Source: Chiloscyllium plagiosum (lineage: Eukaryota). From it: a stretch of DNA of 64,000 nt. Both the position numbers and the translations under genes were made by a program. Below, piece by piece: positions 18,607-60,087 of this stretch. Under the pieces are notes generated by a model, which did no database searches, had not been told where the DNA came from, and saw nothing but the letters and a program-made list of their open reading frames with translations. Each line of letters opens with the position of its first letter. Positions within the stretch are counted from its first letter, which is position 1. The DNA is taken from contig NC_057757.1 in the NCBI RefSeq assembly GCF_004010195.1, forward strand, positions 1,076,405 to 1,140,404, given 5' to 3'.

Positions 18607-18821
18607 AAATCACACAATACCAGTTTATAGTCCAAGAGGTTTATTTGGAAGCACTAGCTTTCAGAGCACTGCTCCTTCATCAGGTGGTTGTCAACCACAT
18701 GATGAAGGAGCAGTGCTCTGAAAGCTAGTGCTTCCAAATAAACCAGTTGGACTATAATCTGGTGCTGTATAATTTTTAACTTTGTACACCCCAGTCCAAT
18801 ACTGGCATCTCCAAATCATGA
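18607..18821. mobile_element. Penelope-like palindromic repeat (family B) with two opposed hammerhead cores
   Basis: Inverted arms of about 85 bp centred near 18691; minus core 18655-18683 CUGAUGA A GGAGC AGU GCUCU GAAAGCUA. Confidence 0.8.
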
Positions 18822-19390
18822 CGTTGCATGAAAACATTTTTCCTCATATCACCGTTGTTACTGTTGTCTTTCAGTTTAAATCAGGTTCTCTACTGTTCTG
18901 GCAATAGGAACAGATTTTCTGTTCTGTTAGATCCATCATGATTTTGGATGTATTTGCAGAGAAAGCTTCATCCAGAGACGGATTGCTGATTAGTTTGTGT
19001 AATGAAGCTCAGTTGTGGAGGCCAGAACTCACCAACATGACAGCTGTTCACTGATTGGCTCTTTGGGAGGTGAACATCTTGTATGAGTGAACAACACGGA
19101 GGAAGAAGCTTCCAGAATGGAACCGTGAAAAGGGTCTCTCACTCTCAGTGATATAACCAAAACTCAGAAAATGGGTAGCTCTTCTCTTCCATCAGTTGGT
19201 GTAAACTGTTGCCTCTAACCAGTGACTGAAAACTGTGTAATAGATATGCCAATTGCATTATGTCTTCAAAGAACTGAAAGAATCTGGATGAGGAAATCAG
19301 AGAACAGAGGGTTTGGAAGCTGTAAAATTGACACCTCATTGAATCTTGTGGGCTGGTGCTATTGAACTATGTTTCCCCAGTTCATCAACA

Positions 19391-19720
19391 TGGTGGCATG
19401 GTGGCTCAGTGGTTAGCACTGCTGCCTCACAGCTCCGGGGTTCCAGGTTTGATCCCAGCCTTGGGTGACTGTGTGGAGCTTGCACATTCTCCCTGTGAAT
19501 GTGTGGTTCCCCTCTGGGTGCTCTGCTTTCCTCCCACAATCTAAAGGTGTGCAGGTCAGGTGAATTGGTCGTGCTAAATTGTCCCATAGTGTCCAGGGAT
19601 GTGTGGGTTAGGTGCATGAGTCAGGGGTAAATGTAGGAATGTGTCTGGGTGGGATACTCTTTGGAGGGTTGATGTGGAATTGTTGGGCTGAAGGGCCTGT
19701 TTCCACATTGGAGGGATTGT
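19391..19720 (+). mobile_element. HE1-type V-SINE
   Basis: A box tggctcagtgg, B-box-like motif, V-domain, LINE-like tail. Confidence 0.88.
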
Positions 19721-19782
19721 AGTATTTTCCCTTCCTCCCATATGTTAATTTGAAAAAGATCTTGTCTGCATGCCTGTTTTGG

Positions 19783-20128
19783 GGAGGTGATGGTGTAGTG
19801 GCATTATTGCTAGACTTTTAATCAAAGATCCAGATAATGTTCTGGGTACCCTGGTTTGAATCCTGCCATGGCAGATAGCCAATTTGAATTCAGTAAATAA
19901 AAACTGGAATTATGAGTCTAATGATGAACATGAAACCACTGTTGATTGTTGGGAAAATGCATCTGATTCACTAATACTCTTTAGGGATGGAAGTTGCCAT
20001 CCTTACCTGGTCTGGCATACATTTGACCCTAGACCCACCGCAAAGTGGTTGACTGTTACCTGCCCTCTGGGCGATAATTACTGGCCTAGCCAGCGACACC
20101 CATATCCTATGTATGAATAAAAAAAAAA
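19783..20128 (+). mobile_element. Second tRNA-derived SINE family sharing its 3' tail with the older LINE; decayed copy near 10195-10520
   Basis: tggtgtagtgg A box, ggtttgaatcc B box; tail ctggcctagccagcgacacccatatcc...gaataaaaaa. Confidence 0.7.
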
Positions 20129-20319
20129 TCAGCTACTAGAGTTTTATGTTGATAATTCATAGTTCTGTTTACCTGTGGCTAGAATTTATTTCTTTGCAAT
20201 AAATAGTAGTTTCCTGTTAAGTGTACAAACCTGACCAATGTTTTCTGTAAACCTGAGTTTATCATACAGGAAAATTGATAAATTTGAGTAGTTTAATTAA
20301 ATCTTTTAACTTCTATAAT

Positions 20320-23300
20320 GATCCTGGGAGTAGTGGGGCTTGAATATCAGCAAATTTTCCCAAGTGGACCAAGACATTAAACAAGGCCAGTTATGAAGGC
20401 ATGAAACAAAATTGACTAAAACTGAATTAGACAATCAGTTTAAAGGGTAGGTCAATAGAGAAACAGTGGCAGACATTTCAGGGGATATTTCAGAAGTCAA
20501 CAAATTTGGAAAATTCCAGAGGACCCAACATTCATTGTAACTAGAAAAGTTAAACAAAGTATAAAGTATTAAGAAAAAGTATATAACGTGTGCAAAGTCG
20601 GATGGCAAATCAGAAGGTTGAAAAGAATATAAAAAATCCAAACAATTAACAAGGAGACAAAAAAATTGAGTTTGAGACAAAGGAAGCTTGAAATGTAAAA
20701 ATATGTTAAGAGTTTAATAAATGTTTACAAAAAAATAAAGTGAGGATTTGTCCTATAGAAAATGAGTGTGGAGAATTGATATTAAAAAAAATGAAGGCGT
20801 GGCAGATGAGTTAAGTGATTATTTTACATCACACTAATCTTCACAACAGAAGGTAAAATCCCAGAAGCAGCTATCATTCAGGAAATTGAAAAGAGGGTCT
20901 TGGGAAAATTAAAATAATTGGAGAAGTGATACTGAGTAAATTGTTGTGGGTGCAGGCTCATAACTTATAATAGCATTTAGTTTGGTGTTTGGATTTGAGC
21001 TAGTGGCATGTGGGCTTTGATCTGTGTGTTTCAGTTGATTTAAAGACTAACTTGTAGATATTTCTCTAGTCATGGTAATTTTGTTTGAAAAAAAAGACAT
21101 ATTTCTTGGAGGCCAATGGGACTTTGCTTCTCATGGGAGAGGTTTTACAAATCCACAACCGTAAACATTTGTGTATTAGGCTTTCAGTTCAGAAGATCAG
21201 CAATTGATATTTTTCTTTGGGGAGAACACCCAGAGTTTGGAAAAAGCTTTTGATTTCGGTTTGGCAAGTTTGCAGAAGTCCTTGTTGAAGTTGGATACCT
21301 AAAATAGTCATTCCTCAGAAAGTGAAAAATCACACGACACCAGGTTATAGTCTAACAGGTTTATTTGAAAGTACAAGCTTTCGGAGATCTGTTTTTGGGA
21401 AAATTTTAGAAACCATTAACAAAGCCATCATAGCAAGGAACTTCAGTAAATTCCCTGTGATCAGGCAGAGTCAGCATGGTTTTGAAAAGTGATACCATGT
21501 TTAACCAATCTGTTGGACTCTTCCACCCCAGGGAAAAGACCTTGTCTATTTATCCTATCCATGCTCCACTCTCTTTAAGAAAGTAATGTGCTGTGGATAA
21601 AAAGGAACTGATGGATGTAATGTACCTTGATTTCCAGATGGCATTTGATAAGGTGTAACATCAAAAGGTATTATGGAAAATAAAATTTCATGTATCAGGA
21701 GCAGCATTTTGGCATGGAAAGAATATTGGCTGGCTAACAGGAAGAATTGAAAAGGGTGGTGCTGGAAAAGTACAACAGGTCAGATAGCATCCAAGGAGCA
21801 GGAGATTGGATGTTTCAGGCATAAGCCCTTCATCAGGAATGTGGAGAGGGAAGGGGGAATGAGAGATATATAGCAGGGGTGGGGCTGGGGTGGAAGGTGG
21901 GTGGGATGACAATAGGTAGACTCAGTTGGGGGAGCAATTGTAATAGGTCAGTGGGGAGGGTGGAGCGGGTAGGTAGGTAGGAAGGAAGATGTACAGATAG
22001 GACAGGATAAGAGGGCGGTGCTGAGTTGGAGGTTGGATCTCGGATGAGGTCGGGAGGAGGGGAGATTTGGAAACTAATGAATTTGATGTCGATGCGATGT
22101 GGTTGGAGGGTCCCAAGGCAGAAGAAGAGGCATTCTTCCAATAAAGAGTAGGCGTAGTGGTGTCTTTTTTCGATTGCAAGATGTAATGAGTAGTGCTTCA
22201 CAGCTATTGGCACTGCGACTTGACTGTTTACAATGTATATAAATAACTTGGATGAAGTGCTGAAGGTATGGTTGCCAAATTTGCTGATAAGAAAACAAAA
22301 AGTCATAGCAGGTGTAGGTCGTTTGGCCCTTGAATGCTTCATCATTCATGAAGATGACAGCTAATTTGCCATGCCTCAACTCATTTTTCTCAGGCCAATC
22401 CATCATAGCTCTCAGTTCCCTGTTATTATGAAAAACTATTTACCTCCTCTTTAGAAGCTAGCAGTGATGCAATCTCCACAACTCTTTAGGGGAAAGAATC
22501 CCAGACATTCAATACCTTCTAGCAGAATAAATGCTTTCACATTTTAAATGAGTGTCCTAACATTGTCCCCAATTCAAGATTTCCCCACTAGTGGAAATAT
22601 CTTCTCAACATCTACCCTGTCAAGTTCCCTCGGGATCTTGTATGTTGCAATAAGGTTACCATTTTGACTGGAAGATAAAAAAAAAGCAAGCGTGTTATCT
22701 CAATGGTGAGAGACTGCAGAGCTCGGAGCTGCAAATCTGGGTATCTTAATACTTGAATCTCAAAAGGCTAGTATGCAGGTATAATTCCTAATTGGGAATG
22801 CTTATAGAATGTTATTTATTGCAAGAAGAATTGAATACGAAAATAGGAAAATTATACTTTAAATATGTAGGTACTGCCTGATCACATGTGGAGTGCTTTA
22901 TACAATATTAGTGTCCAGTCAAGGAAGAATGTGTGTAAATACACTGGAAGCAGTGCAAAGAATGTTTACCAGGCTGACACCTGGAATGGTCCATTTGTGA
23001 GGGACTGGGCTAAATAGACTCGGCTTGTATCTGTTGGAATTTAGAAGGGGTGACATGATTGAAACATTTAAGGTCCTGAGGGGTCTAGACAGGGAAATGC
23101 AGAAAGAATTTTTCCTGCTATAGGATAATCTAGAACTTGGGATCACTGTTTAAAAATAAGGTGTTACCCATTTAAAACAGAGATGAGGTGAGTTTATTTT
23201 TCTTCGAGGATTGGGACTCTTTGGAATTCTCTTCCTGCAAATGAAGTGGGTGGAATCTTGGTAATCAAGGGAGTGAAAGGTTATTGGGGTTTGTGAGATG

Positions 23301-23390
23301 GTGGAGTTGAAAGATCAGCCATGATCTTATTAAATGACGGAGTAGTCTTGAGATACCAAGTGGCCAACTCCGGTTCCTTGTCTATATGTT
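20320..23390 (+). mobile_element. Highly decayed CR1 LINE with nested insertions
   Basis: Scattered RT motifs (cagcatggtttt, gcatttgataagg, aaatttgctgat) and 3' tail near 23310-23390. Confidence 0.7.
21747..22141 (-). mobile_element. Penelope-like element 3' end: GIY-YIG C-terminus, 3'UTR and family A hammerhead repeat
   Basis: LEECLFFCLGTLQPHRIDI in ORF 21833..22345 resembles the PLE endonuclease end; core at 21809-21836. Confidence 0.8.
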
Positions 23391-23918
23391 CACCTGACTG
23401 CTGATGTCATTGTTACATCTAGGTAAACATCATTGCATTATCATAACTATTCCCATTGAACTACTGTAAGTTGTTGGAAGTATGAGCTAGCAATGTTGCA
23501 GCAGTGATAGTGAAACATTTTTGACTCAAATGAAAAGCAGGGTCAACAGTTAATCCATAAACTGGTGAAAGGTTAAGAAAATAAAGTAAGAGGGTTGGTA
23601 GGAGAGAAGAAACTGTTAATACAGGTTAGAAAGATAAAGAAAAAGGGATACCATTGAGAAGAGATTGGGAGAAATGTGTGACCATATGAACGTGTTCCTA
23701 CACACATGTATACAATTCCCTGGAAGCTGCTATGCTTCTTTTAACCTGACACAGTTATCTCAGTTTTTTAAGATACTAACACAGGTCCTTAGTTTGTGTC
23801 TGCCGAATAAGGGGTGTTCCTTCAGGAAGTCACTGATAATCGCCTTTAAATGGCTGCAAATGGAACATGAATACAATAGTTGGCACCTTGAAGATGTGTT
23901 TTGCATGTCTTGGGTGTA

Positions 23919-24087
23919 GTATCGAGAGTGTGGTGCTGCAAAAGCACAGCAGGTCAGGCAGCATCTGAGGAGCAGGAGAATTGATGTTTCGGGCATAAGC
24001 CCTTCATCTTCTCATTCCTGTGCTGTGCTTTTCCAGCACCACACTCTCGACTCTGTTCTCCAGCATCCACAGTCCTCACTTTTTCCT
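23919..24087. mobile_element. Penelope-like family A partial palindrome
   Basis: Exact 14-bp TSD atgtcttgggtgta at 23905-23918 and 24088-24101. Confidence 0.85.
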
Positions 24088-25044
24088 ATGTCTTGGGTGT
24101 ACTCATGCTTGAAGTGCACTTGATAAACTGGTTTGATTTTGAATTGGATCATAGATCCTGCCTTAAAGACAATCACTGATGGACAAGAAATGCTACAAAA
24201 GATCATCGTCACCAACAATCTTTTGTTTATCAATACCTTATCTGAAGATCTGGAGAAGGAAACAGCCTTCCATGTCTGGGTATGCTCCTGATAGCATCAA
24301 TGTGAGATGGATATCAGCATGCAGTCTTTGGTGGCAATAGTAAAAAGCATTTTCATTCTGTAAACATTCTCATTGAGGATTTTAGTTCACAATAGTAGAC
24401 AAACATATTTAGCAAGGGATTTGTATTTGTCATGTGCTTAATTCTGCTACATTCAAAGATTTGAATGAAACTACCCATCAGTGATTGAGGTCAGAGATGT
24501 CCTGCACTTATAAATGCTGCTATACATAGCGTGCCACACATTGATTTGGAAGAAGTGGAGACAGCCTACTCATTTCTTATGCGACATTGCATTAAGGAGA
24601 TTGGTGAAGTGGCTCATTGTGCAGGGACCTGTTGGTATTGCAGATGCAGCTGCTGGGTTAGGCGGGATCGGCTCTAGGGGCACAGGAGTTGTCCATTTTA
24701 GGAACCATTGCGAACATCCTGTTCAGGGAAAACACCTTATTTACTCCATGATTGTTACCAATCATTTTCAGCTAATTGTTTCATATTACTGAGTGAACCT
24801 TGTACCTTTACAGGGAGGTGTGCAGCTGTTGCATGCATTCTGAGTGATACTGCACTTGTCTCTCCATGGGACTAGCCATTCTGTCATGATTGGATGTGTG
24901 GTTGAACCCCCGAGCCAAGAGAGCACACCACTGTTATAGACTGCTGCATTTTCATTGCACAGACTTGCATTGATTTACAAAATGGTGAAATGTCCACATA
25001 TCTGGATAACAAGGATACCGTCAGGCTCCTATTTATTGACAGAT

Positions 25045-25180
25045 TCAAGATTAGTAGAATGGTGCTGGAAAAGCACAGCAGGTCAGGCAGCATCAGAGGA
25101 GTAGGAAATCGAAGTTTTGGGCAAAAGCTCTTCATCAGGAACCCCTTCCTGATAAAGGGCTTTTGCCCGAAATGTTGATT
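25045..25180. mobile_element. Penelope-like family A asymmetric palindrome
   Basis: Opposed decayed cores at about 25111-25138 (-) and 25149-25176 (+). Confidence 0.75.
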
Positions 25181-26242
25181 CAAGAGCAGCCTCTTTCTGC
25201 TGTTATTAGACTTCTGAATGGACCTCTGAAATTTCAGATTTAATGTTTATTTCACTCTTTGTGTATCTTCTCTGTAGCTATAACATTGTATTCCTCGCTT
25301 GGTTGTGTTACCCTTTATGCAGTTTACTCAAATCATTTGTATGGTATGATCTGCCTGTTCTGCATGCAAAACAAAACTTTTCACTATAGGTACACGGCAA
25401 TAATAAATCAAATCAACATCTGCTGCTGATGCTCCAAATATTGTGCTCCATAGGGTGATCCCTGAGACCTTATCTCTATGCATAATGGAGCATTATTGTG
25501 ACTACTGTCCCTCCTCCAGGGATTTATACGAAGGTGTCACTGACTCCGTTCCTTCACCTGTACTCACCAAATACTACTGATTCTATATGCATGCAACATT
25601 CCTCTGATATGCTACCAACCACATTGAGAAAATGCAGGCCAATTAAAAATGCTGCTGCTTCCTTGAATGTCTTTTCCTCCTAATGCCCAAGTATAAAGTT
25701 GATCCAGTGAGTTGTTGGGGTGGAGAGAGAAGCAGTAAGTAAGTGAGCTGGGACCTATGTGAGTTCTGAACAAAATGTAATGAGGTTTGACCCTTCATAT
25801 TGAGAGCCATCTTGAAATATGCGATTTACTTTAACCTCTAATCACAACTGTATTGCTTGTATTATGCAACCGAACCATGTACTTGAGATGTAACATTTGT
25901 GATTTTTATAGTGTGTTTGCACGATACTAGTTGTACACTAGTAGTATATGTGTGTCTGAAGGGGTTTAGTAATTAATGTGTAAGAACTATAGTACAGATG
26001 AGAAGCAGGGGATCTGTACTTTTTCCTTCTGCAACCAAATGGCACTCAGGCCATTGATAGTAACAGCTTCAGCACAGTTGGTGGGAAAGTGTGGATCCCA
26101 GAATCTCTCGGTTTAGCACAGTACAATATACTAATTATATATAATGTGAGAAACTGAAAGGCTCCTCTATCTTTATTTCTTGTCAAGGTAATCAATCAAA
26201 TTTCAATGAAGCATATAAACCGTACATTTCTTTTTAAAAAGG

Positions 26243-26248
26243 TTTATT
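26243..26248 (-). promoter_or_regulatory. Candidate ACAP1 polyadenylation signal AATAAA (second candidate at 26172-26177); implies a 3'UTR of about 700 nt
   Basis: tttatt on + strand at the end of a repeat-free, AT-rich stretch downstream of the stop codon. Confidence 0.55.
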
Positions 26249-26927
26249 TTTTTCAAAACCTCAAGCAAAGCTCTGTTTTATATAAATAATTGTTACAAAC
26301 TAATGTATTATTTAAAAAAAACTTTCAAAGTGAACTGTATCACAATGTAATAAATTGCCTCAAATTTCTGATACATTTCTTTTGAATCCTGCTATTCATT
26401 TTTGAATCCAACAGCTTCAACTTTGGCCTGATCGATTTCCGCAGTCTTAAGCTATGCATGGGACCCGGAATAAAAAGTTGCTCCTCACTTAATTCTGAAT
26501 TTGAACCTCAAGATCTGTTTGGATTACTGACTTTGGATATCTAATGATTAATAGGAGTCTGATTGAAACTTTATCTGGAAATGTTATCCTGAGATGTTCC
26601 AGACTGTAGCTGAATTCAGACATGTTGAGAAGAGAATTAGTTGAGTTCCAGAGTTTGGAGATCAAGGGAAACAGTGTAATTAGATTGGATTTCAATATAG
26701 TGAAGATGGAGGGAGCAAGAATCCCCTGGTGCTGGAAAAGAAATGGGGTTCCTCAGTTCCTTATTGTTGTTGAACTCTTAAAAATGATATTCCTGCTGTA
26801 TGTGAACAATCAACATTTTTTTTTGCTTTCTGTGCTTTAGCTAGTTTGGAAGAAGCATGTTGCACCTGTTGAGGGAATCATACAGCAGCCTGTAGGATAT
26901 CTCTGGGTGATTGCCAGGTAGGAACAC

Positions 26928-27034
26928 TTAAAGCGTTGAGGTTCTGAGTTCATGACTCTTACGTTTTAACTTCTCCGGGTTATTTGAAGCCATATGCGAG
27001 AAATCTCGGAAAATGTCGTTGTACGTTTCATCTC
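26928..27034 (-). CDS. ACAP1: ACAP1 last coding exon (DETYNDIFRDFSHMASNNPEKLKRKSHELRTSTL*)
   Basis: Polypyrimidine tract and cag acceptor; TAA at 26930-26928; tail resembles ACAP1 RRSHDLHTL as recalled. Confidence 0.94.
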
Positions 27035-30097: not shown

Positions 30098-31331
30098 AAC
30101 TCATTGATTTAGGCATGAAATCATGCAACAAATGACTCCCCAAAAACTCCCACCCACCACCTTACCACTTTAAAGCCTTTGCCCCCTTGTTTCTTCTAAA
30201 TATATTTTCAGTGAAGGCGTGAGAGCCAGTCCTGACAGTGTAGCTCCATCATGTCTCAGACTGTTGCTAATGCCAATTAAACAGACTTTCAGTGACTAGC
30301 TCTCCATTGTGACTGTCCTCCATGCAATATTATTCCTTGGTCTCATAGGTCATGAGTACATTGTAACTGTTGGGTAGATTCCATGTCTATGGGGCCTCCT
30401 CTAAAGATGTGTCTAAGTTCTGTATAATATTGTCCAGACATTCTTCTGACTCCCTTCTAGTCATACCAAACACCTTCTTCACTATCCTATCTACCTGCAA
30501 CTCCATTTTCAAGGAACTATGAACCTGCACTCGAAGGTCTCTTTGTTCAGCAACACTCCCAAGGACTTTACCATTAAGTGTATAAATCCTGCTACGATTT
30601 ACTTTCCCAAAATGCAGCACCTCACATTTATCTAAATTAAACACCATCTGCCACTTCTCAGCCCATTGGCCCATCTGATCAAGATCCCGTTGTAATCTGA
30701 GGTAACCTTCTTTGTTGTCCACTATACCTCCAATTTTGGTATCATCTACAAATTTACTAACTATACCCCTTATGCTCACATCCAAGTCATTTATATAAAT
30801 GATGAAAAGTAGTGGACCCAACACCAATCCTTGTGGCACTCCACTGGTCAAAAGCTGGAGATGTGGAGTTAGATCACAGATCAGATAATTTTATTGAATG
30901 GTGTAACAGGTTTGAGATATATAACGACCACCTCCTTTTCCTTCCTTCCCCTGCAGTCCTATATTACTGCTGTCTCTATCTTTTCTCCAGAGACGATGAG
31001 CTGTAGCAGACACAGTTTACCTAAGCTGTATATAATCTGCTCTCAACATAGTTAACCACTTTCACTCACTGGGGAGTGGGATGGGGAGGAGATAGCTATT
31101 CAATAATTAACATTCGGAAGCATTCCCGAGAGCTGGGACTAATCTTCCAGAGCTAAGGTTCCTGAGTAAATCCATATAATCATTTAATGGTGGGGATTAT
31201 TGTCAGAACTATACAACCTGCTCACTGGCTCCTCTCTTAGCTTAGATTTTAAGGATAGTAGCTTGTGTTACTTAATCACAGAGAGCAGAAATATAATATA
31301 TTCAGTCTCAAGTCCCTGTTAACTTACTTGT

Positions 31332-31484
31332 CATGATTTGGAGATGCCAGTGTTGGACTGAGGTGTACAAAGTTAAAAATCACACACCAGGTTATAGTCC
31401 AACAGGTTTAATTGAAAGCACTAGCTAGTGCTTCCAATTAAACCTGTTGGACTATAACCTGGTGTTGTGTGATTTTTAACTTTG
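31332..31484. mobile_element. Penelope-like family B palindrome collapsed at the hammerhead site
   Basis: Inverted arms of about 55 bp meeting at gcactagctagtgc. Confidence 0.75.
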
Positions 31485-33849: not shown

Positions 33850-36800
33850 AGGGGAGCACATCAGTTAGAAAAGAAAGACACAAGGGAGTCAGAGTACATA
33901 GTAACTCTGAAGAACTAAACTGCATTTATTTCAATGCAAGGGGTTTTACAGGTAAGGCTGATGAACTGAAGATATGTTTAAGAACATGGGATTGGGACGT
34001 CATAACTATTACAGAAACCTAGAAGAGAGATGGACAAGACTGGCAGCTCAATGTTCCAGGTTTTACACGCTGTATGAAGGATAGAAAAAGAGTGAAAATA
34101 TATGGGTAGAAATTACAAATAAGAAAGGAAAGATCACTTTGATGGGATTGTACTATAGGCCCCCCAATAGTAAGAGGGAGATTGAGAAACAAATAAGTAG
34201 GGATATCTCAGATATATGTAAGCATTGTAATAATGGAGGATTTTGATTTTCCAAACATTGACTCGGGCTACCATAGTGTTAAAGGCTTGAATGGTGAAGA
34301 ATTTGTCAAATTTGTTTGAGAAAATTTCCTTTTTCAATATATGGATGCTATTACTAGAGAAGGAGGAAAATAAGATCTTCTTTTGGCAGGACAGGTGACT
34401 GAAGTTAAAGTGGGGGAACACTTTGGGTCTAGCGATCATAGTTCTATGAGTTTCAAAATGGCTATGGAAAACGTTAAGCCTTCCATTTAGAATCATAGAA
34501 TCATAGAGATGTACAGCATGGAAACAGACCCTTCGGTCCAACCCGTCCATGACCCAATCTAGTCCCACCTGCCAGCACCCGGCTCATATCCCTCCAAACC
34601 CTTTCTATTCATATACCCATCCAAATGCCTCTTAAATGTTGCAATTGTACCAGCCTCCACCAAATCCTCTGACAGCTCATTCCATACACGTACCACCCTC
34701 TGCATGAAAAAGTTGCCCCTTAGGTCTCTTTTATATCTTTCCCCTCTCACCCTAAACCTATGCCCTCTAGTTCTGGACTCCATGACTCCAGGGAAAANNN
34801 NNNNNNNNCCTAACCAATGTCCTGTACAGCCGCAACATGACCTCCCAACTCCAGTACTCAATACTCTGACCAATAAAGGAAAGCATACCAAACACCGCCT
34901 TCAATATCCTATCTACCTGCGACTCCACTTTCAAGGAGCTATGAACCTGCACTCCAAGGTCTCTTTGTTCAACAGCACTCCCAAGGACCTTACCATTAAG
35001 TGTATAAGTCCTGCTCAGATTTGCTTTCCCAAAATGCAGCACCTCGCATTTAATTGAATTAAACTCCATCTGCCACTTCAAGGTAAATTTTAATGCCACG
35101 AGACAAGAGCTTTCAAAAGTTGATTGGAGTAGACTGTTCGCAGGTACAAGGGTGTCTGACAAGTTGGAGGTGCTGAGGAATGTGATGACGAGAGTTTGGA
35201 GGCATTTTATTCATGATAGAGTGGTATGATTAAGGAACAATGGATGAATAAAGATATTGATGTTCTTGTCAAGAATAAAAGAGAATCGTAATTTAGATAC
35301 AGACAACTTGGTTCAATTGAATCTCTTAATCAATATAAAGAGTGTTGGAGCATTCCTAACAGAGAAATTAGGAAGTCAAAGAGGGGAAAAGATAGCATTG
35401 GCAGATAAGGTTAAGGATAATCCAAAGAGATTCTACAAATATAGTAAGAGTAAGGTAACTGAGAGAGGGTAGAGCCTCTTAAAGATCAAGGAGGTCATAA
35501 GAACTAGGAGCAGGAGTAGGCCGTCTGGCCCTTCGAGCCTACTCTGCCATTCAATAAGGTCATGGCTGACCTTTTCGTAGACTCAGCTTCACTTACCTGC
35601 CCATTCACCATAACCCTTAATTCCTTTATTGTTAAAAAATAAATCTTAGTTTTAAAAACATTTACTGCAGAAACCTCAACTATTTCTCTGGGCAGAGAAT
35701 TCCACAGATTCACAACCCTCTGGGTGAGGACGTTCCTTCTCAATTCAGTCCTGAATTTGCTCCTCCTAATTTTGAGGCTATTCCCTTGTGTCTTAGTTTC
35801 ACCTGCCAGTGGAAACATCCTCTCTATGTCTATCTTATCTATTCCGTTCATAATTTTATATGTTTCTCTAAGATCCCCCCTCATTCTTCTGAATTCCAGT
35901 GAATATAATCCCAGTCTACTCAGTCTCTCCTCATAAGCCAACCCTGTCAACTCCAGACCTAGGTGAACCTCCTCTGCACCTCCTCCAGTGCCAGTATATC
36001 TTTTCTCAAATAAGGAGACCAAAACTGCATGCAGTACTCCAGGTGTGGCCTCACCAGCACCCTGTACAGCTGCAATATAACCTCCCTGATATTCAACGTA
36101 ATTCCTTCAGCAGTGAAGGACAAAATTCCATTTGCCTTCTTAATTACCTGCTGTACCTGCAGGCCAACCATATGTGATTTATTCACAAGGGCACCCAGGT
36201 CCCTCTGCACAGCAGCGTGCTGCAACTTTTTACCAGGAGATGGGAGAGATACTAAATGAATATTTCTCATCAGTTTTTAGTGTGGAGAAAGAAATGGAGA
36301 CCAGAGAATGCAGAGAGAGAAATATTGATGTTTTAAAAACAGTTCACACTACAGAAGAGGAAGTTTGGGAGGACGTGGAGAATATAAATGTGTGTAAATC
36401 TCCTGGACCTGACCTAATGATCCCAGAACATTGTGGGAAGAAAGAGAGGACATTACGAGACCCCTCGCAGAAATATTTACATCATCTGTAACTACGGGTT
36501 GTGGGGGGGGGGGGGGGGGGTGGGCGGTGGCTGATGACTGGAGGGTAGCTAATGTTGTACCTTTGTTTAAGAAAGGTTGTAAGGGGAAACTGGGGAACTA
36601 AAGACCTGTGAGTCTGACTTTGACTGGCAGGAAATTTTTGAAGGTGATTATAAAAGGTAGGATTTATGGACATTTAGAGAGGCAAAATTGATTAAGGATA
36701 GTCCGCATGGTTTTGTGCGAGAAAAATCGTGTCTCACAAACTTGATTGAGTTTTTTTGAGGAAGTTACCAAAAAAGTTGATGATGGCAGAGCAGTAGACA

Positions 36801-50745: not shown

Positions 50746-50965
50746 TATTGTTTAATCCTTGCCAATAATTTGCCTTTATTAAGAGTTTCATGTATAACTA
50801 GTTCAAACTGTTAAAGAACTTCGCCAAATACGTCTGAAAGCCTCTATATCTAATATCATACTTTGTTCTACTCAATACTTTAGTCACCTCAAAGGGTGTA
50901 TTCAGCGACTGCACCAAATTAAAATTTGGGTGAGTTGGCAAATGTGCCTGACTCTTGCCCTTTAC

Positions 50966-51687: not shown

Positions 51688-51890
51688 GCGGGGAGTCCAT
51701 ATTCCTGTGAGAGTCATTGTGTGTAGAATCCAAATTCCAGTGAGTCAGTGTGTGTGCAACCATATTCCAGTGAAAGAATGTACGGGATCAGTATCCTAGT
51801 GACAGCTAATATGTTGGAATTATGCCTCTTGAGTGTCAGCATGCATGGAATCCATACCCCTGTGAGATTCAGTGTGTGTGCGTGGAACTT
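51688..51890. repeat. Degenerate minisatellite of about 30 bp near an ACAP1 donor site
   Basis: Recurrent ggaatccatattcc.gtgagagtcagtgtgt-like units. Confidence 0.6.
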
Positions 51891-51924
51891 GTAATTGCGA
51901 AGTTTCAATGAATTTATTTTGTAC

Positions 51925-52033
51925 CGTATAATTGTCCTCTCGCCTCTCATTAAAGGCTGTTGCAATGCTTGATTGTACCGCCAGGATCCAGGTTTGCTGG
52001 TGTTTCTCAGAATCAGCCTGAAGCATGCAGCTC
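51925..52033 (-). CDS. ACAP1: ACAP1 coding exon (PH C-terminal helix: SCMLQADSEKHQQTWILAVQSSIATAFNERREDNYT)
   Basis: 109-nt exon, cag acceptor, gtac donor; inside ORF 51820..52047; phases consistent on both sides. Confidence 0.92.
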
Positions 52034-52939
52034 CTGCCAGGGAACATAAGGAGAGCATAAGAACAGGGAACTTACATCAAGGCTGCAAGTCTTGTAAATG
52101 TTAAAACGACTACTGTTTAAAACAGTGTTCTGACAGCAGCACTCGTGTATGTGTGAAGGGAAACATGAGGGATATTTTAGTCAAACGTTGCCCTTCATGG
52201 AGTTTGAGGCTCTGATTGCTGTTTAGTTATTATGGGATGTGAGGCTAATTGGTAAGGTGCATATTTATTGTCTGTTTCTTGTATGGTTCTACAGACACTG
52301 ACTCTCACTAAACACAAGAGGCAATAGCCTGTGAGGGCCAGACCAGAGTGGGTAAGGATAACAAAGGACATTATGAACTGTTTAGGGTTTCATGACTATC
52401 TGATAGATTGTGGTCACTTTTACTGGTACAGCCTTTTATTTTCAGATGTGTTAAATTGAATTCAGATATCTTTAAACATCAATTTGAAATCATGCTTTCT
52501 GGTTTACTAGTTCAATAATACAGGGAAATCGTGGTAACACAAATTTGGATAACCTGAAACACTGGTTGAGGTGAAGCTTTCAGTCATTCCCAATGACAGA
52601 ACAGTAAGTACAATCAAAAGATGCCCACGATAAACCAAATTGTTTTAGCTGAATTCATGCATGCATATGACCAGGGCAACAAATCAGAGCAGAGTTCAAC
52701 TCACTGGAACATGAAATCACAGGCAAGTTAAGGGTGAACATCAAGATCAAAACCTCTGTGAAAGAATGTTCACCTGCAGGAATGGTTAAACTTATAGAGA
52801 AAGTTTAAAATAGATTGGAGACAAAGAGAAATTTGTATGACTCGATATGCAGTGGAAAATCGCAGTGTGAAATAGTGGGACCTTCCACCAGTGAGTTTGT
52901 TGACCATTCTGAAACACTGCAGCATGAAAGCACAGGAAA

Positions 52940-53468
52940 TATGATTTGGAGGTGCCAGTGTTGTACTGGAGTGTACAAGAGTAAAAATCACCAACACCAG
53001 GTTATAGTCCAACAGGTTCATTTGGAAGCACTAGCTTTCAGAGCGCTGCTCCTTCATCAGGTGATTGTAGAGTATAAAATCATAAGACACATGATTTATA
53101 GCAAACGTTTACAGTGTGATGTAACTGAAATTATATATTGAAAAAGGTCTGGATTGTTTGTTAAGTCTCTCATCCTTTAGAATGACAGTGTTGATTTCAG
53201 TTCTTTCATATGTAAATCCCAGAACTTTTCTTAAAAAGTTACATTCTCAGGTTAACTTTAACAATAGGTGCCATGTCGTCTCAGAATTATGTATGAAGGT
53301 GTGAGCTGCCCCAATCTGTGCCCCAATGTTCAGACTGATTCTATTTCTAAAAAAGGAATTTACAGAATCTGACATGGATTCATGCAGTTTTTGAGCAAAA
53401 TAAAATATAATTCTGCACGAAATATGTTTGACTTGAATTGACAATATGGTCAACTGTATTGCACTCAC
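52940..53468 (-). mobile_element. Longer Penelope-like family B 3' fragment
   Basis: Same terminus as 18607-18821 and 31332-31484, extended by about 400 bp. Confidence 0.7.
53032..53060 (-). ncRNA. Minimal hammerhead ribozyme motif (family B), sense to ACAP1 pre-mRNA
   Basis: cac-CUGAUGA A GGAGC AGC GCUCU GAAAGCUA-gug; stem I cac/gug; activity untested. Confidence 0.6.
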
Positions 53469-53493
53469 TCAAAGACAGTTAGGTGGTGGATCA

Positions 53494-54543
53494 TGTTACG
53501 AAGATATGCGTGTACTTTAAGAAAGTTAAAAGCAGCCAAACTACCGGACACGGAACCAAGTGTTCTCAATAAGGCAACAATGTAACACTTGGTCGAACAA
53601 CTCAATTAGATCATTGCCTGGAGACAAAAACAAATTTGAATTCGACCAATCAGTTTAAATTATACCCCCAAAAATATCAAACTCTAATCCAGTTTGAATT
53701 GATTATATTGAAAATCTTAAAAGCCAATGATGCAATCCAATGCTTTGGGTGTATAAGACTGGGGAAAATTGAACAGTTGGGAGGAGAACTGTTCATGGGC
53801 GGCACGGTGGCACAGTGGTTAGCACTGCTGTCTCGCAGCGCCAGAGACCCGGGTTCGATTCCCGCCTCAGGCGACTGACTGTGTGGAGTTTGCACATTCT
53901 CCCCGTGTCTGCGTGGGTTTCCTCCGGGTGCTCCGGTTTCCTCCCACACTCCAAAAGATGTGCAAGTCAGGTGAATTGGCCATGCTAAATTGCCCGTAGT
54001 GTTAGGTAAAGGGGTAAATGTAGGGGTATGGGTGGGTTACGCTTCGGCGGGTCGGTGTGGACTTGTTGGGCCGAAGGGCCTGTTTCCACACTGTAAGTAA
54101 TCTAATCTAATCTAATCTAAAAACTGCCAAGCTACCAGCATGTAAACAGACTGCCTGAAAAATAGCTGTCTTAAAAAGGTACCTTATCGATCAGTAACCT
54201 GTAATGTAGAAATTCCTAAGAAGAAGAAAAGAAGACACAGGAAGATCTGAACAGAAGAATGAAAGCTGCTGGGTTTTGAGATAAGAAGTCGTGTTTATAA
54301 ATCTTAATTGGGAGTTTTATCAGACTAGTATTATAGAAGGGAAGGTAGCAGATAGATTAGAGTAAGGAATGGTTAATAGTTGTTAGTTAATTATTCTCTG
54401 ATATACTTTAGGAAATAAAGTTGTTAATTTTTACTTTAAATAGTTCGTGGCCACTCGAATTTCTACAGATTATTGCATGGTATAAATCTTTGCTGTGTTG
54501 CTGGTTTTAAATTAAACAGGAGGGTTTACCTCGTGTCGTAACA
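53494..54543 (+). mobile_element. Solo LTR containing an HE1 SINE
   Basis: Terminal inverted tgttacga/tcgtaaca; flanks ATCA/ATCG (4-bp TSD with CpG decay); AATAAA near 54414. Confidence 0.75.
53797..54120 (+). mobile_element. HE1-type V-SINE, youngest-looking copy
   Basis: CpG-rich; tggcacagtgg and gttcgattcc boxes; V-domain; (aatct)n tail. Confidence 0.92.
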
Positions 54544-56836
54544 ATCGCAAGAAAAGAATTTGTGGAATGTCTAGAAGATGGGTTTTTGGAGTAGCACTAG
54601 TAAATAGGCAGTTCTGGATTTAGGGTTGTGCAATGAAAGCAGACTTGATAAGAGAGCTTAAGGTGAAGGAACCCTTAGGAGGCAGTGACCATAATATGAT
54701 AGAATTTATTCTGCAATTTGAAAGGGAGAAGGTGGAATCAGATATAATGGTATTACAGCTGATTAAAGGCAACTAGAGAGGTATGAGAGAGGAGTTGACC
54801 AGAACTGACTGGGGGAGGAGCCGAGCAGGAAAGACAGTGGAACAGCAATGGCAGGGGATTCTGGGAGTAATTCAGGAGGCATAGCAGAGATTCATCGCGA
54901 GGAAAAAGAAGCGTGGCCCAGGGAGGATGAGGCAACCCTGGCTGACCGGGGAAGTCAGGGACAGCGTTAACGCAAAAGAGAAAGCATATAATGCAGTGAA
55001 GGGCAATGGGAAGCCACAGGTTTTGGAAGCTTAAAAAGACCTACAGAGGACAGCGAAGAAAATAATAAGGAGGGAGGAGATTAAATATGAGAGTTAGCTA
55101 GCCAGTAATATGAAGAACGATTGCAGGAGTTTCTTTAGATATATAAAGAGTGATAAAGAGGCAAAAGTGGACATTGGGCTGCTGAAGAAGTAGCAATGGA
55201 GAACGAGGAAATGGCTGAGGAACTAAACAAGTATCTTGCATCAGTCTTCACGGTGGAAGACACAAATAATATCCCAAAATTCAACAGACAGAGATGAGTA
55301 CAGTGGCCATCACCAAGGAAAAGGTACCAGAAAAACTGAAAGGTCTGAAAATAGATAAATCACCTGGACTAGATGGACTGCACCCCAGATATCTGAAGGT
55401 GATAGCTGAAGAGATAATGCAGCCTTCAGTAATAATCTTTCAAGTATTACTGGAGTCAGGGAGAGTCCCAGAGGACTGGAAAATTGCTGACATATCCCCT
55501 CATTTAAGAAGGGAGTAAGGCAAAAAATGGGAAATTATAGGCCGATTAGCCTGACCTCAGTTGTTGGTAGGATTTTAGAGTCCATTCTGAAGGATGAGAT
55601 TTCTGAGTACTTCAAAGTGAATGGTAAAATAGGATAAAGTCACATGGTTTCATCAAGGGGAGACCATGTCTGGCAAATCTGCTAGAATTCTTCGAGGAGG
55701 TTACAAGCAGATTAGACCAAGGACAGCCAATGGATGTTATTGACCTGGACTTCCAGAAGGCCTTTGACAAGGTGCTGCACAAGAGGCTGCTGAGTAAGAT
55801 AAGGGTTCATGGTGTTAGAGACACGGTACTAGCATGACTGAAAGATTAGCAGAAGGCAGAGAGTGGGGATAAAAGGGACCTTCTCAGTATGGCAGGCATT
55901 TCACAAGGGTCAGTGTTATGAACGCAGCTTTTCATTTTATACATTAATGATCTGGATGAAGGAACTGAGGAAATTCTGGCTAAGTTTGGGATGGTACAGA
56001 GATAAGTGGAAGATGTAGACAGGTTAGGAGGGTGGGAAAAGATATGGCAGATTGAATATAATGTGAGAAAGTGTGAGGTGATGCACTTTGGTAGGAAGAA
56101 TAGAGGCATGGGCTATTTTCTAAATGGGGAGAAACTTCATAAATCTGAAGTGCAAAGAGACTTGGGAGTCCTCGTCCATGTTTCTGTTGAGGGAAACTTG
56201 CAGGTTGAGACAGTACTTAGGAAGGCAAATACAAGTTGTCATTCATCTCGAGAGGTTTGCTCTTCTGAGGCTTTGTAAAGTTCTGGTCAGACCACATTTA
56301 GAGTATTGTGTGCAATTTTGGGCCCCATACCTCAGGGAGGATATATTGGCCCTGGAGTGGGTCCAGAGGAGGTTCATGAGAATGATCCTAGGGTTGAAAG
56401 GCTTAATATATATGAGGAATGTTTGAGGACTCTGGGACTGTACTCAATGGAGTTTAGAAGGATGCAGAGGAATCTGATTGAGACTTACAGAATACTGAAT
56501 GGCCTGGATAGAGTGGATGTTGGGAAGATGTTTCCATTGGTAGGAGACTCGAGAGCCTTTGAGTAAAGGGAAGACCCTTTAGAACAGAGATAAGGAGAAA
56601 CTTCTTCAGCTAGAATGGTGAACTATAGAATTCACTGCCATAGAAGAAGTTGTGGTGGTCAGATCATTGAGTATATTTAAAACCAAGGTAGATAAGTTCT
56701 TGATTGCCAAGGGGATCAAAAGTTACGGGGGGCAAGTGGGAAAATGGGGTTGATAAACCTATCAGTCACAATCGAATGGCAGACCAGACGTGATCGCCTA
56801 AATGGCCTAATTTCTGCTCATCTGTCTTATGGTCTT
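54544..56836 (+). mobile_element. CR1 LINE ORF2 relic to 3' tail
   Basis: KSPGLDGLHPR, PEDWKIA, KCEVMHFG, RPHLEYCVQFW. Confidence 0.9.
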
Positions 56837-57998
56837 GTGCTAAGTTGAAAAAGATTAGAGATTTATCAGTCCTAACGTCAAGCATTTTTGAGAGAGTTTT
56901 TACTGTACAATGTCATGCATTTAAGGTGTGAGAAAAAGTAACGACATTTTCACAAAATCAGAATTTTCATTTCTTTTTGACAGAGCTCGTTTGTGGGCAA
57001 ATCAGGTTAGATAGGAACTTGGCTCGACTATCTCAAAGCTCTGCTTAACGTGGATTTGTGGGTGGGTTTCCTAATGTTGGTGCATTAGTCTAGGCAAAGC
57101 TACTGTATCCCAAGTTCTATTGATAGACACTAGGCGATTGTCAGGTTGTATCTGATTTCTCAACACTTATTATTGAACTTGACAGAAATGAGCAATGCTC
57201 TTTCCTCATCAATCTCTTAATCTTTCTGTCGAAAGGATCTTGTTTATTATTGTGCACAAAGTTTTTTCATGGATGGATAGTTCAGGATAAGGAGGAGTCT
57301 GACTACCTTAAATTATTTACTAGGCCCAGCAAAATTGAGATTGTTTTTGCATTAGAGCAGAAAAGGCTATGGGGAAATTTAATTGAAGTGCAGAATCTTC
57401 AAACATTATGTGGAGTTTTGATAGTGAATTAGGAGAATTCTTGTAATATTGTCAGAAGTTTTGTATAATTAGAGCACATTGATTTAAAATAATTGACAAA
57501 ATAACTACAGGGGACATCAGTTTTTTAAAAAAGTCACAGAGAGCAATGCTCTGTCTGAAAGGGTGATGTAAGCAGGTGCAATAGTAACTTTGAAAGGGAA
57601 TTAAATTTTAAAAAACTTTCAAAAGTAAACATTGGAAGGCCGTGGAGAATGAATGAAATAACTGGCAAACTCTTTGAACAGAGAAAAACAATTTTTCCCC
57701 CAAAAGGCTGAGACTGCTGAAGAAAAAAAAAGGGAGCTTTAAATATTTGTGGGCAAAGGTATCAAAGGATATGGAGCAATGTACCCAACTTAATGAAAGG
57801 TACAGAACAACCTTGTGCCTGTTCTCCAAATGCTATATGTAACATGGGCTGACGTTTCCAAGTCCCACATGGATGCCATCTAGCCAAGTTTAGCCCACAG
57901 ATTTGGATGTTGTAAACAAGCTTTTAAAAACAATTAAAGATATTATCTACTTTATTCTATGATGGAACAGATCTGAAAATGAAGGAATGGCAATGAAG

Positions 57999-58297
57999 GG
58001 GCAACACGGTGGCTCAGTGGTTAGCACGGCTGCCTCACAGTACCAGGGACTCGGATTCGACTCCAGCCTCAGGCGACTGTCTGTGTGGAGTTTGCACATT
58101 CTCCCCGTGTCTGTGCGGGTTTCTTCCCACACTCCAAAGATGTGCAGGTCAGGTGGACTGACCATGCTAAATTACCTATAGTGTTCGGTGCATTAGTCAG
58201 AGGAAAATGGGTCTGGGTGGGTTACTCTTTGGAGGGTCGGTGTGGACTGGTTGGGCTGAAGGGCCTGTTTCCACACTATAGGGAATCTAGTCTAATC
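57999..58297 (+). mobile_element. HE1-type V-SINE; further fragments at 58603-58670 and 59248-59447
   Basis: Same family sequence. Confidence 0.87.
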
Positions 58298-58416
58298 AAT
58301 GAAAACAAAGTACACATTCTTGCATGACTGAACACCACATGCTCCGTCTTCCCTTGTTTGTCAGCAGACTGATCAACATTGAAAGATTTGACAGGCATTG
58401 GCCAATTCACACTCAC

Positions 58417-58517
58417 TTTGATGGGGAGACTACCTCAAAGCAGAATCGTCTCTCAGTGTCTGTACCAGACTTGATTGTACACAGTCGGAGGTCTTCCACC
58501 ACAACCGTTAGATTATC
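58417..58517 (-). CDS. ACAP1: ACAP1 coding exon (PH domain: DNLTVVVEDLRLCTIKSGTDTERRFCFEVVSPS)
   Basis: 101-nt exon, cag/gtgagt, phase 0 to 2; ACAP motif VVEDLRLCT...ERRFCFEVVS. Confidence 0.95.
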
Positions 58518-59669
58518 CTGTATCATTGAAAATAATGAATTTACAGCTTCTTTCAACGGGTTAGCAAAGTCCACAATTCACAGTTTCAAGGTATCTTCCA
58601 TGCGCTTCGGCGGGTCAGTGTGGACTTGTTGGGCCGAAGGGCCTGTTTCCACACTGTAATGTAATCTAATCTTTAAGTTTCTTTTTTAACGGTTTGTGGG
58701 CACTTCAGGCAAGGCTGACACTTAACCTCAATCTCAGTGGTTTTCTAGACTTCTTCCAAGAATTATTAAAAGTCAAACTCGCTGATCTGGTTTATTAATT
58801 TGCCATCCTACCAAATCAATGATAATTGGTAATAGACTCTCTTTCAATTCTAGAATTAAGTGATTTTAAATTTTACTAGATGTCTTGGTGTATCTTAAAC
58901 CCAAGTCCCCAACGTATTACTCTGGGCTGTGGTTTTGCTAGCCAGTAACACCACCACATCTGCACTTTCTCATGAACACAAATTAACTCATTCATGCAAT
59001 CACCTAGAATCTATAGAAGAGAAATAGACCATTGGTTGACATGATCCAACAATTTTGTGTTGCCTGATATTGAGCCTAAGCTACCTCCTTTAAACTTTAT
59101 GTCTTTGATGTAGTTCTGTGGATAGCACTTCTCTGCAGTAGATGTGTTTTCAAACCGAGAATGCTACATAGTTAGAAGAGCTTTATTTCTAATTTGACAA
59201 TTAAACAGTGCCTCTTTGCCCTCTTGGCTAAACTTAAAAGATCTCATTTTGCACATTCTCCTAGTGTCTGCGTGGGTTTCCTCCGGGTTATCCGGTTTCC
59301 TCCCACAGTCCAAAAATGTGCAGGTCAGGTGAATTGACCATGCTAAATTGCCCGTAGTGTTAGGTAAAGGGGTAAATGGGTCTTTGGCGGGTTGGTGTGG
59401 ACTTGTTGGGCCGAAGGGCCTGTTTCCACACTGTAAGTAATCTAATCAAAAGAAAGAAATTCTCTGGCCAATATGTATTCCACAATCAACATCACTCTAG
59501 TTATTGTTGCTAATGGTGGGTACTAGTGGTGTGCAAATTAGCTGCAAAATTGCCTACATTATAATATTTCAAATACGTTAGTGGCTATTAAAAAACTATG
59601 GAATGTTCTCAGGTGGTGAAGGGTGTTGCACAAAAGCAACTTTTAATTTCACTTGCACCATTTATCTAG

Positions 59670-60087
59670 TCATGATGTGGAGGTGCCGGATTGGGGTGGA
59701 CAAAGTTAAAAATCAGATTCAAAAAGTGTGGTGTTGGAAAAGCACAGCCACTCAGGCAGCATCTGAGGAGCAGGAGAAGTGATGTTTCGAGTATGAGCTC
59801 TTCATCAGGAATTGAGCTTATGCCTGAAACGTTGACTCTCCTGCTCCGCGGATGCTACCTGACCTGCTGTGCTTTTCCAGCACCTTACTTTTCGACTCTG
59901 ATCTCCAGCCTCTGCAGTCCTCGCTTTCTCAAAGTTAAAAATCACACAACACCAGGTTATAGTCCAACAGGTTTATTTGGAAGAACCAGCTTTTGGAGTA
60001 CTGCTACTTCATCAGGTAGCTGAGCAGCGCTCTGAAAGCTAGTGCTTCCAAATAAACCTGCTGGACTATAACCTGGCGTTGTGTGAT
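59670..60087. mobile_element. Family B Penelope-like palindrome with a family A palindrome (59716-59929) nested inside
   Basis: Exact 15-bp TSD caaagttaaaaatca at 59701-59715 and 59930-59944. Confidence 0.85.

What the first reader, a model, noticed from the sequence alone, without database searches (positions are those of the whole stretch)
18655..60041. Second hammerhead family (B) with a compensatory stem III palindrome, AGCU instead of ACGU
Seen: a repeat with unrelated flanks has cac-CUGAUGA-A-GGAGC(AGY)GCUCU-GAAAGCUA-gug at 18655-18683(-), 18699-18727(+, first C mutated), 53032-53060(-) and decayed at 59987-60041. Core and spacing match family A, while stems I, II and III all differ in sequence yet keep pairing. 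Inference: the ACGU to AGCU swap preserves self-complementarity, as expected if two copies pair through stem III. This is the strongest in-window evidence that the motif is a selected RNA structure. The predicted cleavage triplet is CUA.
Basis: partly seen in the sequence, partly recalled or inferred. Interest (0 to 1): 0.72.

Follow-up and report, generated by a model that had tools for sequence, protein, structure and literature searches.

The report
Penelope hammerhead with AGCU dimer palindrome
These repeats are broken end-stubs of a very common Penelope-type jumping gene carrying a known kind of tiny hammerhead ribozyme motif that likely works in pairs, and at three other places in the genome U6 RNA copies are joined exactly after its CUA, which likely records real cutting there.

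Summary
The motif is real at all four places. It is the minimal type I hammerhead in the end repeat (pLTR) of a 3.2-kb Penelope-like retrotransposon with RT and GIY-YIG domains. A sample extrapolates to about 195,000 arms genome-wide, mostly truncated.

The stem III palindrome holds beyond this genome: 20 of 20 distinct minimal hammerheads in unrelated Penelope loci are palindromic (ACGU, AUAU, AGCU, AAUU). This rule, AGCU included, is already published (Cervera and de la Pena 2014).

- A and B are not sister families (AU p=0.009), so no direct ACGU-to-AGCU swap is shown.
- The stem II 'differences' are largely CpG decay.
- The close window pairs are inverted, so they would fold as sense-antisense hairpins, not dimers.

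New support for the CUA site: three U6-family B chimeric loci all join exactly after CUA (2 of 2 from unbiased patterns), fitting ligation to a 5'-OH cleavage product. Ordinary copies never start there (0 of 74) but pile up at the ribozyme's 5' edge, so most templates were likely uncut. Earlier notes of this scan reported the Penelope reading and U6 fusions on other DNA of this genome.

The parts
18607..18691 (-). Family B pLTR stub, arm 1 of an inverted insertion (offsets -8 to +76 from hammerhead C3)
18652..18686 (-). Minimal type I hammerhead with intact core: stem I cac/gug, C3=18683, stem III AGCU 18659-18656, N17=A at 18655; predicted cut between 18655 and 18654
18692..18818 (+). Family B stub, arm 2 of the same insertion, running to the +121 'tail' end; hammerhead 18699-18727 with C3 changed to A (core broken)
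52942..53417 (-). Longest family B copy in the window: about 365 nt of Penelope 3' UTR, then pLTR and tail; hammerhead 53060-53032 with intact core
   Evidence: 81% identity over 456 nt to the 3' end of full-length element L061
59930..60017 (-). Decayed family B arm (GAAA box to AAAA, N17=G)
60022..60090 (+). Inverted partner arm, 5'-truncated at about +9 (no CUGAUGA box)
31334..31484 (.).
21325..21386 (-). Solitary family B stub starting at about +17, AGCU-U (CUU triplet) subfamily

Best explanation
Family B is the minimal hammerhead motif in the end repeat (pLTR) of a 3.2-kb Penelope-like retrotransposon, likely of the Neptune group, and its AGCU palindrome is predicted to let two ribozyme copies pair into a dimer that would cut after CUA, while the window holds only truncated, likely dead stubs. 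Shown: full-length copies run pLTR, RT, GIY-YIG, 3' UTR, pLTR, with the hammerhead at both ends on one strand. Stubs end at +78 or at a +121 tail and often sit as inverted pairs. The palindrome is kept across unrelated Penelope families. Three U6 chimeras join exactly after CUA. Ordinary copies start at the ribozyme's 5' edge, not at the cut. Related-organism RNA is polyadenylated 26-30 nt after the cut site. Inferred: the two copies in a pLTR-ORF-pLTR transcript (or in two transcripts) pair through AGCU/AGCU; cutting is slow or needs the element's protein; a minority of transcripts is cut, leaving a 5'-OH end that RtcB can join to U6's cyclic-phosphate end before reverse transcription; most stubs are run-off copies of uncut RNA that begins just upstream of the hammerhead.
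For: Element: L061 and L062 align over 3.2 kb at 83% and encode RT and GIY-YIG motifs. RVT_1 E=1.4e-5, below the curated cut-off. Homologues carry PF00078+PF26215, many also PF01541; best hits are 69-74% shark proteins. 22 of 30 ORF-end loci have the B hammerhead 379-1128 nt downstream. L061 has it at 4086 and 7212 on one strand. 3' ends at +77/78 (23 of 80) and +120/121 (19 of 80) match the Penelope 'tail' (PMC8557442, PMC11167929). Palindrome: AGCT in 51 of 57 whole B copies; all five hammerhead clusters of a 1.31-Mb random sample have a palindromic parent or its CpG-decay products; 20 of 20 distinct metagenome motifs, plus 6 longer palindromes; AGCU in L202 is rejected as one clade with family B plus turtle PLEs (p-AU 0.001). 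Within B, stem I position -3/+31 is C-G 27, U-A 7, U-G 4, C-A 2, U-U 1 of 41. Cut site: U6 junctions exactly after CUA at L308, L311 (both arms) and L316 (both arms); RtcB chemistry from PMC6789731 passages. 5' ends: 36 of 64 at risk fall in -10..+10 and 0 of 74 in +26..+30.
Against: No cleavage or dimer was assayed. The designed hammerhead dimer (-11.1 and -16.3 kcal/mol) is less stable than an alternative duplex (-21.7 and -25.5), and the monomer prefers a hairpin that buries the cut site. Only three U6-B loci were found, and one came from a query biased to that junction. If a parent had the CUU triplet, up to 2 T's at the junction are ambiguous. No ordinary copy starts at the cut. RNA reads span the site uncut and show no pile-up of ends, although that library could not easily show one. 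Seven Penelope loci from the metagenome set have a non-bulged core followed by non-palindromic ACCG; they were left out of the 20-of-20 count as a different, unresolved geometry. The stem I covariation is probably a single subfamily event.
Confidence: 0.8

Rival explanations
1. The motif is a vestigial or passenger hammerhead in the pLTR that seldom or never cuts in this family; the palindrome is inherited from active ancestors and the U6 junctions reflect another nuclease or a template switch.
For: 0 of 74 ordinary B copies start at the cut. Uncut polyadenylated RNAs exist. Competing folds win in silico. In the anole Penelope, hammerhead mutants still transpose in vitro and no reads begin at the cut (PMC11167929). 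Naiad PLEs lack canonical hammerheads yet multiply (PMC8557442).
Against: Both unbiased U6-B chimeras, and the third, join at the exact predicted bond, where no ordinary copy starts; family A chimeras likewise join after GUC (L284, L301). Palindromy persists across at least 9 state changes on the RT tree.
Confidence: 0.13
2. Family B is a separate non-autonomous retrozyme or SINE-like element of about 130 nt that spreads as circles or tandem arrays, borrowing a Penelope RT.
For: Most copies are 80-130 nt and begin at the hammerhead's 5' edge. Animal retrozymes are described as pLTR-related (bioRxiv 10.64898/2026.07.22.740005 passages).
Against: Coverage declines continuously from the pLTR into the 3' UTR and ORF of one element. 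Close pairs are inverted rather than head-to-tail (no dedicated tandem-array search was run). 5' ends do not coincide with the cut site, as unit-length circles would predict.
Confidence: 0.05
3. The neighbouring window copies (18655/18699, 59987/60022) are themselves a selected, locally pairing ribozyme dimer with a host function.
For: Two copies lie 16 nt apart; 2 of the window's arms keep an intact core.
Against: They are on opposite strands, so one transcript carries one sense and one antisense copy and folds into a long hairpin (-124 to -130 kcal/mol for 18600-18780). Partner cores are broken. 33 of 80 B arms genome-wide have such an inverted partner within 300 nt.
Confidence: 0.02

Closest known systems
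Minimal type I hammerheads (min-HHR) in pLTRs of metazoan Penelope-like elements (Cervera and de la Pena 2014, PMC4209133; I read text parts 1-2 of 4 and supplement file 2 part 2 of 3; file 1 was not searchable)
   Same: CUGANGA core, extra nucleotide before stem II, G10.1-C11.1, short stem I, palindromic 15.2-16.2, location in both pLTRs, thousands of solo or opposite-strand copies. Their Fig. S3 table lists AGCU for Chrysemys picta and S. mansoni(3), also ACGU, AUAU and AAUU, and a CUA triplet for Marsupenaeus japonicus (read from PDF text in which the GAAA column is detached, so column order is my parse).
   Different: No shark hit in the searched supplement. Copy number here (about 195,000 arms, extrapolated) is far above their 4,000-9,000 for coelacanth and Xenopus. 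They report no U6 junctions or 5'-end pile-up in what I read.
Penelope-associated hammerheads that cleave as dimers (Lunse, Weinberg and Breaker, RNA Biol 14:1499; not held; seen only as a citation and summary in PMC6765202)
   Same: Very short palindromic stem III, dimer cleavage model.
   Different: Could not check whether shark AGCU variants were among those listed or assayed.
Anole Poseidon element PAc (Frangieh-type in vitro study, PMC11167929; whole main-text section read; author name recalled)
   Same: pLTR hammerhead, two RT start sites that define a tail, both DNA strands extended, protein-assisted cleavage, uncut RNA as main template.
   Different: In PAc the ORF starts inside the hammerhead; here the first ATG lies at the end of the tail, about +121. 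Family B has a CX4CxxC linker, which PMC8557442 associates with Neptune. They found no in vivo trace of cutting.
U6/LINE-1 chimeric pseudogenes made by RtcB ligation (Moldovan et al. 2019, PMC6789731; passages read)
   Same: U6 3' T-run joined to a 5'-truncated retroelement; needs a 5'-OH partner.
   Different: There the L1 partner is variably truncated; here the partner is a Penelope RNA and the junction is fixed at a ribozyme's predicted cut.

Membership tests
Minimal type I hammerhead (min-HHR) | Core boxes CUGANGA and GAAA with U16.1 and H17 | tested here: met
   Intact at 18683 and 53060; majority letters over 57 copies; N17 A41/U13/G3
Minimal type I hammerhead (min-HHR) | Extra nucleotide after position 9 and G10.1-C11.1 closing stem II | tested here: met
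   A bulge; +8/+20 is G-C 25, G-U 14 (CpG decay) of 41
Minimal type I hammerhead (min-HHR) | Short stem I flanking the core | tested here: met
   3 bp cac/gug; uac/gua in one subfamily
Minimal type I hammerhead (min-HHR) | Palindromic 15.1-16.1 tetramer | tested here: met
   AGCT in 51 of 57
Minimal type I hammerhead (min-HHR) | Self-cleavage after N17, as a dimer | not testable with these tools
   Indirect only: U6 junctions at the predicted bond; folding energies favour other structures
Rfam hammerhead families | Match to a curated covariance model | tested here: not met
   No hammerhead family among 16 matches at E<=5
Penelope-like element (EN+) | Single ORF with RT followed by C-terminal GIY-YIG | tested here: met
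   Motifs in broken frames of L061-L064; homologues with PF00078 and PF01541. Direct Pfam scan gave only RVT_1 below cut-off and no GIY-YIG hit
Penelope-like element (EN+) | Direct-repeat pLTRs carrying the hammerhead | tested here: met
   L061 copies at 4086 and 7212
Penelope-like element (EN+) | 5' truncation, inverted partner copies, 30-40 nt tail | tested here: met
   the tail here is 43 nt
Neptune clade | CX2-5CxxC linker between RT and EN | tested here: met
   Present in the L061 translation, decayed in L062 and L063
Neptune clade | RT groups with named Neptune elements | not tested
   No named references in hand; tree places B with unnamed turtle PLE proteins, 96/92
Non-LTR retrozyme | Non-coding head-to-tail repeats of 150-300 nt with unit ends at the hammerhead | tested here: not met
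   Continuous with an RT-EN element; sampled close pairs are inverted
RtcB-type U6 chimera | U6 3' end with T-run joined to a partner without junction homology | tested here: met
   L308, L311, L316: U6 3' part, 3-6 T, then GTG at +29
RtcB-type U6 chimera | Dependence on RtcB and a 5'-OH end | not testable with these tools
   Inferred from PMC6789731

The most novel reading that the evidence does not exclude
The genome holds a fossil record of how Penelope hammerheads behave in the germ line. A minority of family B transcripts is cut exactly after CUA and trapped by ligation to U6. The bulk of insertions are run-off copies of uncut RNA that starts at the ribozyme's 5' edge. The cut lies about 10 nt before an AAUAAA that is used as a poly(A) signal, so cleavage of the downstream pLTR would strip the poly(A) tail. 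The dimer ribozyme would then act as a regulator or end-processor of Penelope RNA rather than as a step needed for insertion.
Probability: 0.55. Interest if true: 0.62.

Novelty: new member of a known kind. Interest (0 to 1): 0.36.

Why it matters
The palindrome swap itself confirms a rule published in 2014 and matters little. The useful part is a handle on an open question: whether the weak minimal hammerheads of animal Penelope elements cut in living cells, and what for. U6 junctions at the predicted CUA bond, together with the absence of ordinary copies starting there, make that testable by genome counting and by 5'-OH or cyclic-phosphate RNA capture. A search of the held library for Penelope + hammerhead + U6 snRNA returned 0 papers; U6 snRNA + RtcB + chimeric + ribozyme returned 5, none on Penelope by title. 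Subscription papers are not covered.

Tried and rejected
- Rfam: no hammerhead match; the miRNA hits at 18639-18743 only reflect the inverted repeat, and the weak U6 hit at 7505-7612 lies in LINE-like sequence.
- PDB search of the RT piece: one weak retron RT hit, E=0.017.
- No Penelope RT match in the window itself or its two 10-kb flanks.
- First 5'-end analysis was contaminated by inverted copies in the reference panel and was redone. About six inverted arms are still misplaced far upstream, so the pile-up is understated.
- A cap-derived extra G before 5' ends, proposed in earlier notes, was not seen (G 6, T 13, A 6, C 6 of 31); my boundaries are too coarse to exclude it.
- L309/L312 and L310/L313 matched the U6-end pattern but have no U6 upstream and were dropped from the chimera count (2 of 4 pattern loci). 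L344 is an ordinary B copy. L320 and L326 start at +29 without U6 but were pulled by a biased query, so they were not counted.
- No RNA holder was listed for the window copy. Run X22 laid no reads, so it is no test.
- RNA 'joints' from 7240-7242 back to 4115 look like circles closed at the cut but are the same place in the two pLTRs, so they cannot be told from ordinary reads.
- Tree rows dropped for the clade tests: L094, L128, L263, L272, P0003 (25 of 30 kept; long, odd or label-uncertain rows, and one redundant shark row); L168 was too short for either tree. The backbone is unresolved, so the direction of tetramer change is unknown.
- Selection on the tetramer among genomic copies: not significant.
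Full report
Observation. The four places named hold the motif. Counting offsets from hammerhead C3: core CUGAUGA 0..6, bulged A 7, stem II 8..20, GAA 21..23, AGCU 24..27, N17 28, predicted cut between 28 and 29. Copies 18683(-) and 53060(-) have intact cores. 18699(+) has lost C3. The 59987-60041 place is a decayed arm plus an arm truncated at +9. The descriptor finds 7 hits in the window and none in 100 Markov simulations. BLAST adds an inverted pair at 31334-31484, joined on the AGCT palindrome, and a stub at 21325-21386: 8 arms in all.

What it is. The window lies in a 3.56-Gb genome. The best protein homologues of the linked ORF are from sharks. Longer B copies share 600-700 nt upstream and end in an ORF C-terminus. 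Of 30 loci fetched with that ORF end, 22 have the B hammerhead 379-1128 nt downstream on the same strand. L061 and L062 align over 3.2 kb at 83% and carry, in broken frames, DKG, RT, a CX4CxxC linker and GIY-YIG motifs (motif names recalled or from PMC8557442). Pfam gave RVT_1 at E=1.4e-5, below cut-off, and no GIY-YIG hit on 6 pieces. The 120 listed homologues mostly carry PF00078 and PF26215, many also PF01541. L061 has the hammerhead at both ends, 3,126 nt apart, and the first ATG follows the tail. In 136 arbitrary 10-kb stretches (1.314 Mb without N) there are 72 B arms, about 195,000 genome-wide by extrapolation. Their 3' ends cluster at +77/78 (23 of 80) and +120/121 (19 of 80), and 33 of 80 have an inverted partner within 300 nt. 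Truncation, inversion and tail are Penelope hallmarks (PMC8557442 passages; PMC11167929).

The palindrome. Among 57 whole B copies the tetramer is AGCT in 51, and N17 is A 41, T 13, G 3. The random sample gave 127 descriptor hits. Clusters A (74: ACGT 53, ATGT 10, ACAT 9, other 2), C (7), D (6) and E (2) have ACGT or its CpG-decay products; B (19) has AGCT in 18; three hits come from a LINE-like coding stretch, and 16 are other scattered hits. In 77 metagenome Penelope loci, a descriptor leaving the three bases after A15.1 free found 20 distinct minimal motifs, all palindromic (ACGT 10, ATAT 8, AGCT 1, AATT 1), plus five 6-mers and one 8-mer palindrome, none on the antisense strand. One non-palindromic row was a second register of a motif already counted. 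Seven loci with a non-bulged core and ACCG, and one further odd locus, fell outside this descriptor and remain unexplained. So palindromy is a real constraint across families. [quoted passage not shown]

No direct swap. On an RT tree of 30 rows, family B groups with turtle Penelope proteins (96/92) and family A elsewhere; the backbone is open. With 25 rows, A+B as one clade is rejected (p-AU 0.009), as is B+turtle+L202, the other AGCU carrier (p-AU 0.001); the stem III word changes at least 9 times. These tests used the quick LG+G4 model. The turtle entry with AGCU suggests the word may be old in this lineage (inference; I cannot show that the listed turtle motif belongs to these proteins). 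Within B, stem I shows C-G to U-A at -3/+31 (Fisher p=0.0005, but likely one subfamily event).

The window copies cannot be the dimer. The close pairs are on opposite strands and fold into long hairpins. A cis dimer needs two same-strand copies, as in pLTR-ORF-pLTR. A 4-bp AGCU duplex scores -2.5 kcal/mol against -1.7 for ACGU. The designed dimer loses to an alternative duplex, and the monomer to a hairpin over the cut site. This fits the low activity and protein assistance reported for such ribozymes.

Is CUA the cut? Ordinary copies give no sign of it. B 5' ends fall at -10..+10 in 36 of 64 at risk (0.027 per nt, against 0.003-0.009 in the other bins) and at +26..+30 in 0 of 74 (78 of 80 arms scored). 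Family A behaves alike: 94 of 162 and 6 of 191 (226 of 236 scored). I found this before reading earlier notes, which report the same. Those notes gave the U6 lead, which I tested for B. Patterns allowing the junction anywhere from upstream of the hammerhead to past the cut gave 4 loci. Two lack U6. The two real chimeras, L308 (U6 57-106, 92%) and L311 (both arms), join T-run to GTG exactly at +29. A junction-biased query added L316, both arms, same bond. Of 30 top U6 loci, 2 join family A right after GUC and none joins B. RtcB joins U6's cyclic phosphate to a 5'-OH (PMC6789731), and a 5'-OH is what hammerhead cleavage leaves (established chemistry). The sample is small, but the position is the one predicted in advance.

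RNA. In one poly(A) single-cell run of a related organism, 3,217 reads lay on the 53032 copy, mostly 85-95% alike and so from other copies. First-mate orientation and T-runs indicate sense RNA with poly(A) at +55 and +58 (587 and 694 reads), after the AAUAAA at +38..+43. Reads span the cut site without an end pile-up. This shows uncut polyadenylated RNA through B copies; whether from host or element transcripts is unknown.

Mechanism. Shown: element anatomy, palindrome rule, junction positions, 5'-end distribution, poly(A) site. Inferred: dimerisation through AGCU, slow or protein-assisted cutting after CUA, U6 ligation by RtcB, and run-off copying of uncut RNA as the source of most stubs.

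Verdict. A real but known kind of element and ribozyme; the AGCU variant is already listed. The added value is indirect evidence that the CUA site is cut in vivo, a lead this scan had already found for Penelope families of this genome. Interest 0.36; new member of a known kind. Unseen material that may bear on novelty: Lunse et al. (not held), supplement file 1 and parts 1 and 3 of file 2 of PMC4209133 (file 2 was term-searched only), and the bioRxiv retrozyme supplements, whose sample includes one cartilaginous fish.

Noticed in passing
window 31423-31426: The two arms of an inverted B insertion join exactly on the AGCT palindrome, likely by microhomology; 3 of 80 arms start at +24 (two are these).
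   Followed up: partly
window 2799/2829, 9277, 21813, 39528, 50628, 59785, 61591: Family A hammerhead stubs; family A is also tied to Penelope RT ORFs elsewhere (L128, L168, L170, L179).
   Followed up: partly
L284 and L301 (just 3' of the U6 match): U6 joined to family A right after the GUC triplet.
   Followed up: partly
L282, L289, L290, L294, L299, L302-L307; L285: 11 of 30 top U6 loci are followed by the 5' end of one SINE-like repeat, and L285 by a tRNA-like 5' end (labels recalled, not tested).
   Followed up: no
L072, L094, L188 (cluster D); L071, L173 (cluster E); L084 and others (cluster C): Three further hammerhead families with ACGU; D copies are nearly identical and L094 has an RT between two copies.
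   Followed up: partly
L215:3430, L217:3956, L218:3369, L219:4455, L224:5116, L228:3463, L236:3449: Metagenome Penelope loci with a non-bulged hammerhead core, GAAACCGUG and an upstream hairpin; topology unresolved.
   Followed up: partly
L254, L266, L274, L275: Hammerheads with the U3-A8 core covariation (UUGANAA) described for Schistosoma.
   Followed up: no
window 53002-53005: Poly(A) addition site of family B RNAs in a related organism, 26-30 nt after the predicted cut; this window copy has AATGAA instead of AATAAA.
   Followed up: partly
window 18643-18675 (-) and equivalent positions: The 5' strand of stem II can instead pair with the sequence just 3' of the cut site, giving a competing hairpin that could switch the ribozyme off.
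   Followed up: no
window 5324-5396: Near-perfect short inverted repeat, the source of several sub-threshold miRNA matches.
   Followed up: no
window 8409-8867, 14546-15754, 30387-30890, 35504-36106: Fragments of CR1-like LINE reverse transcriptase (family label recalled from motifs).
   Followed up: no
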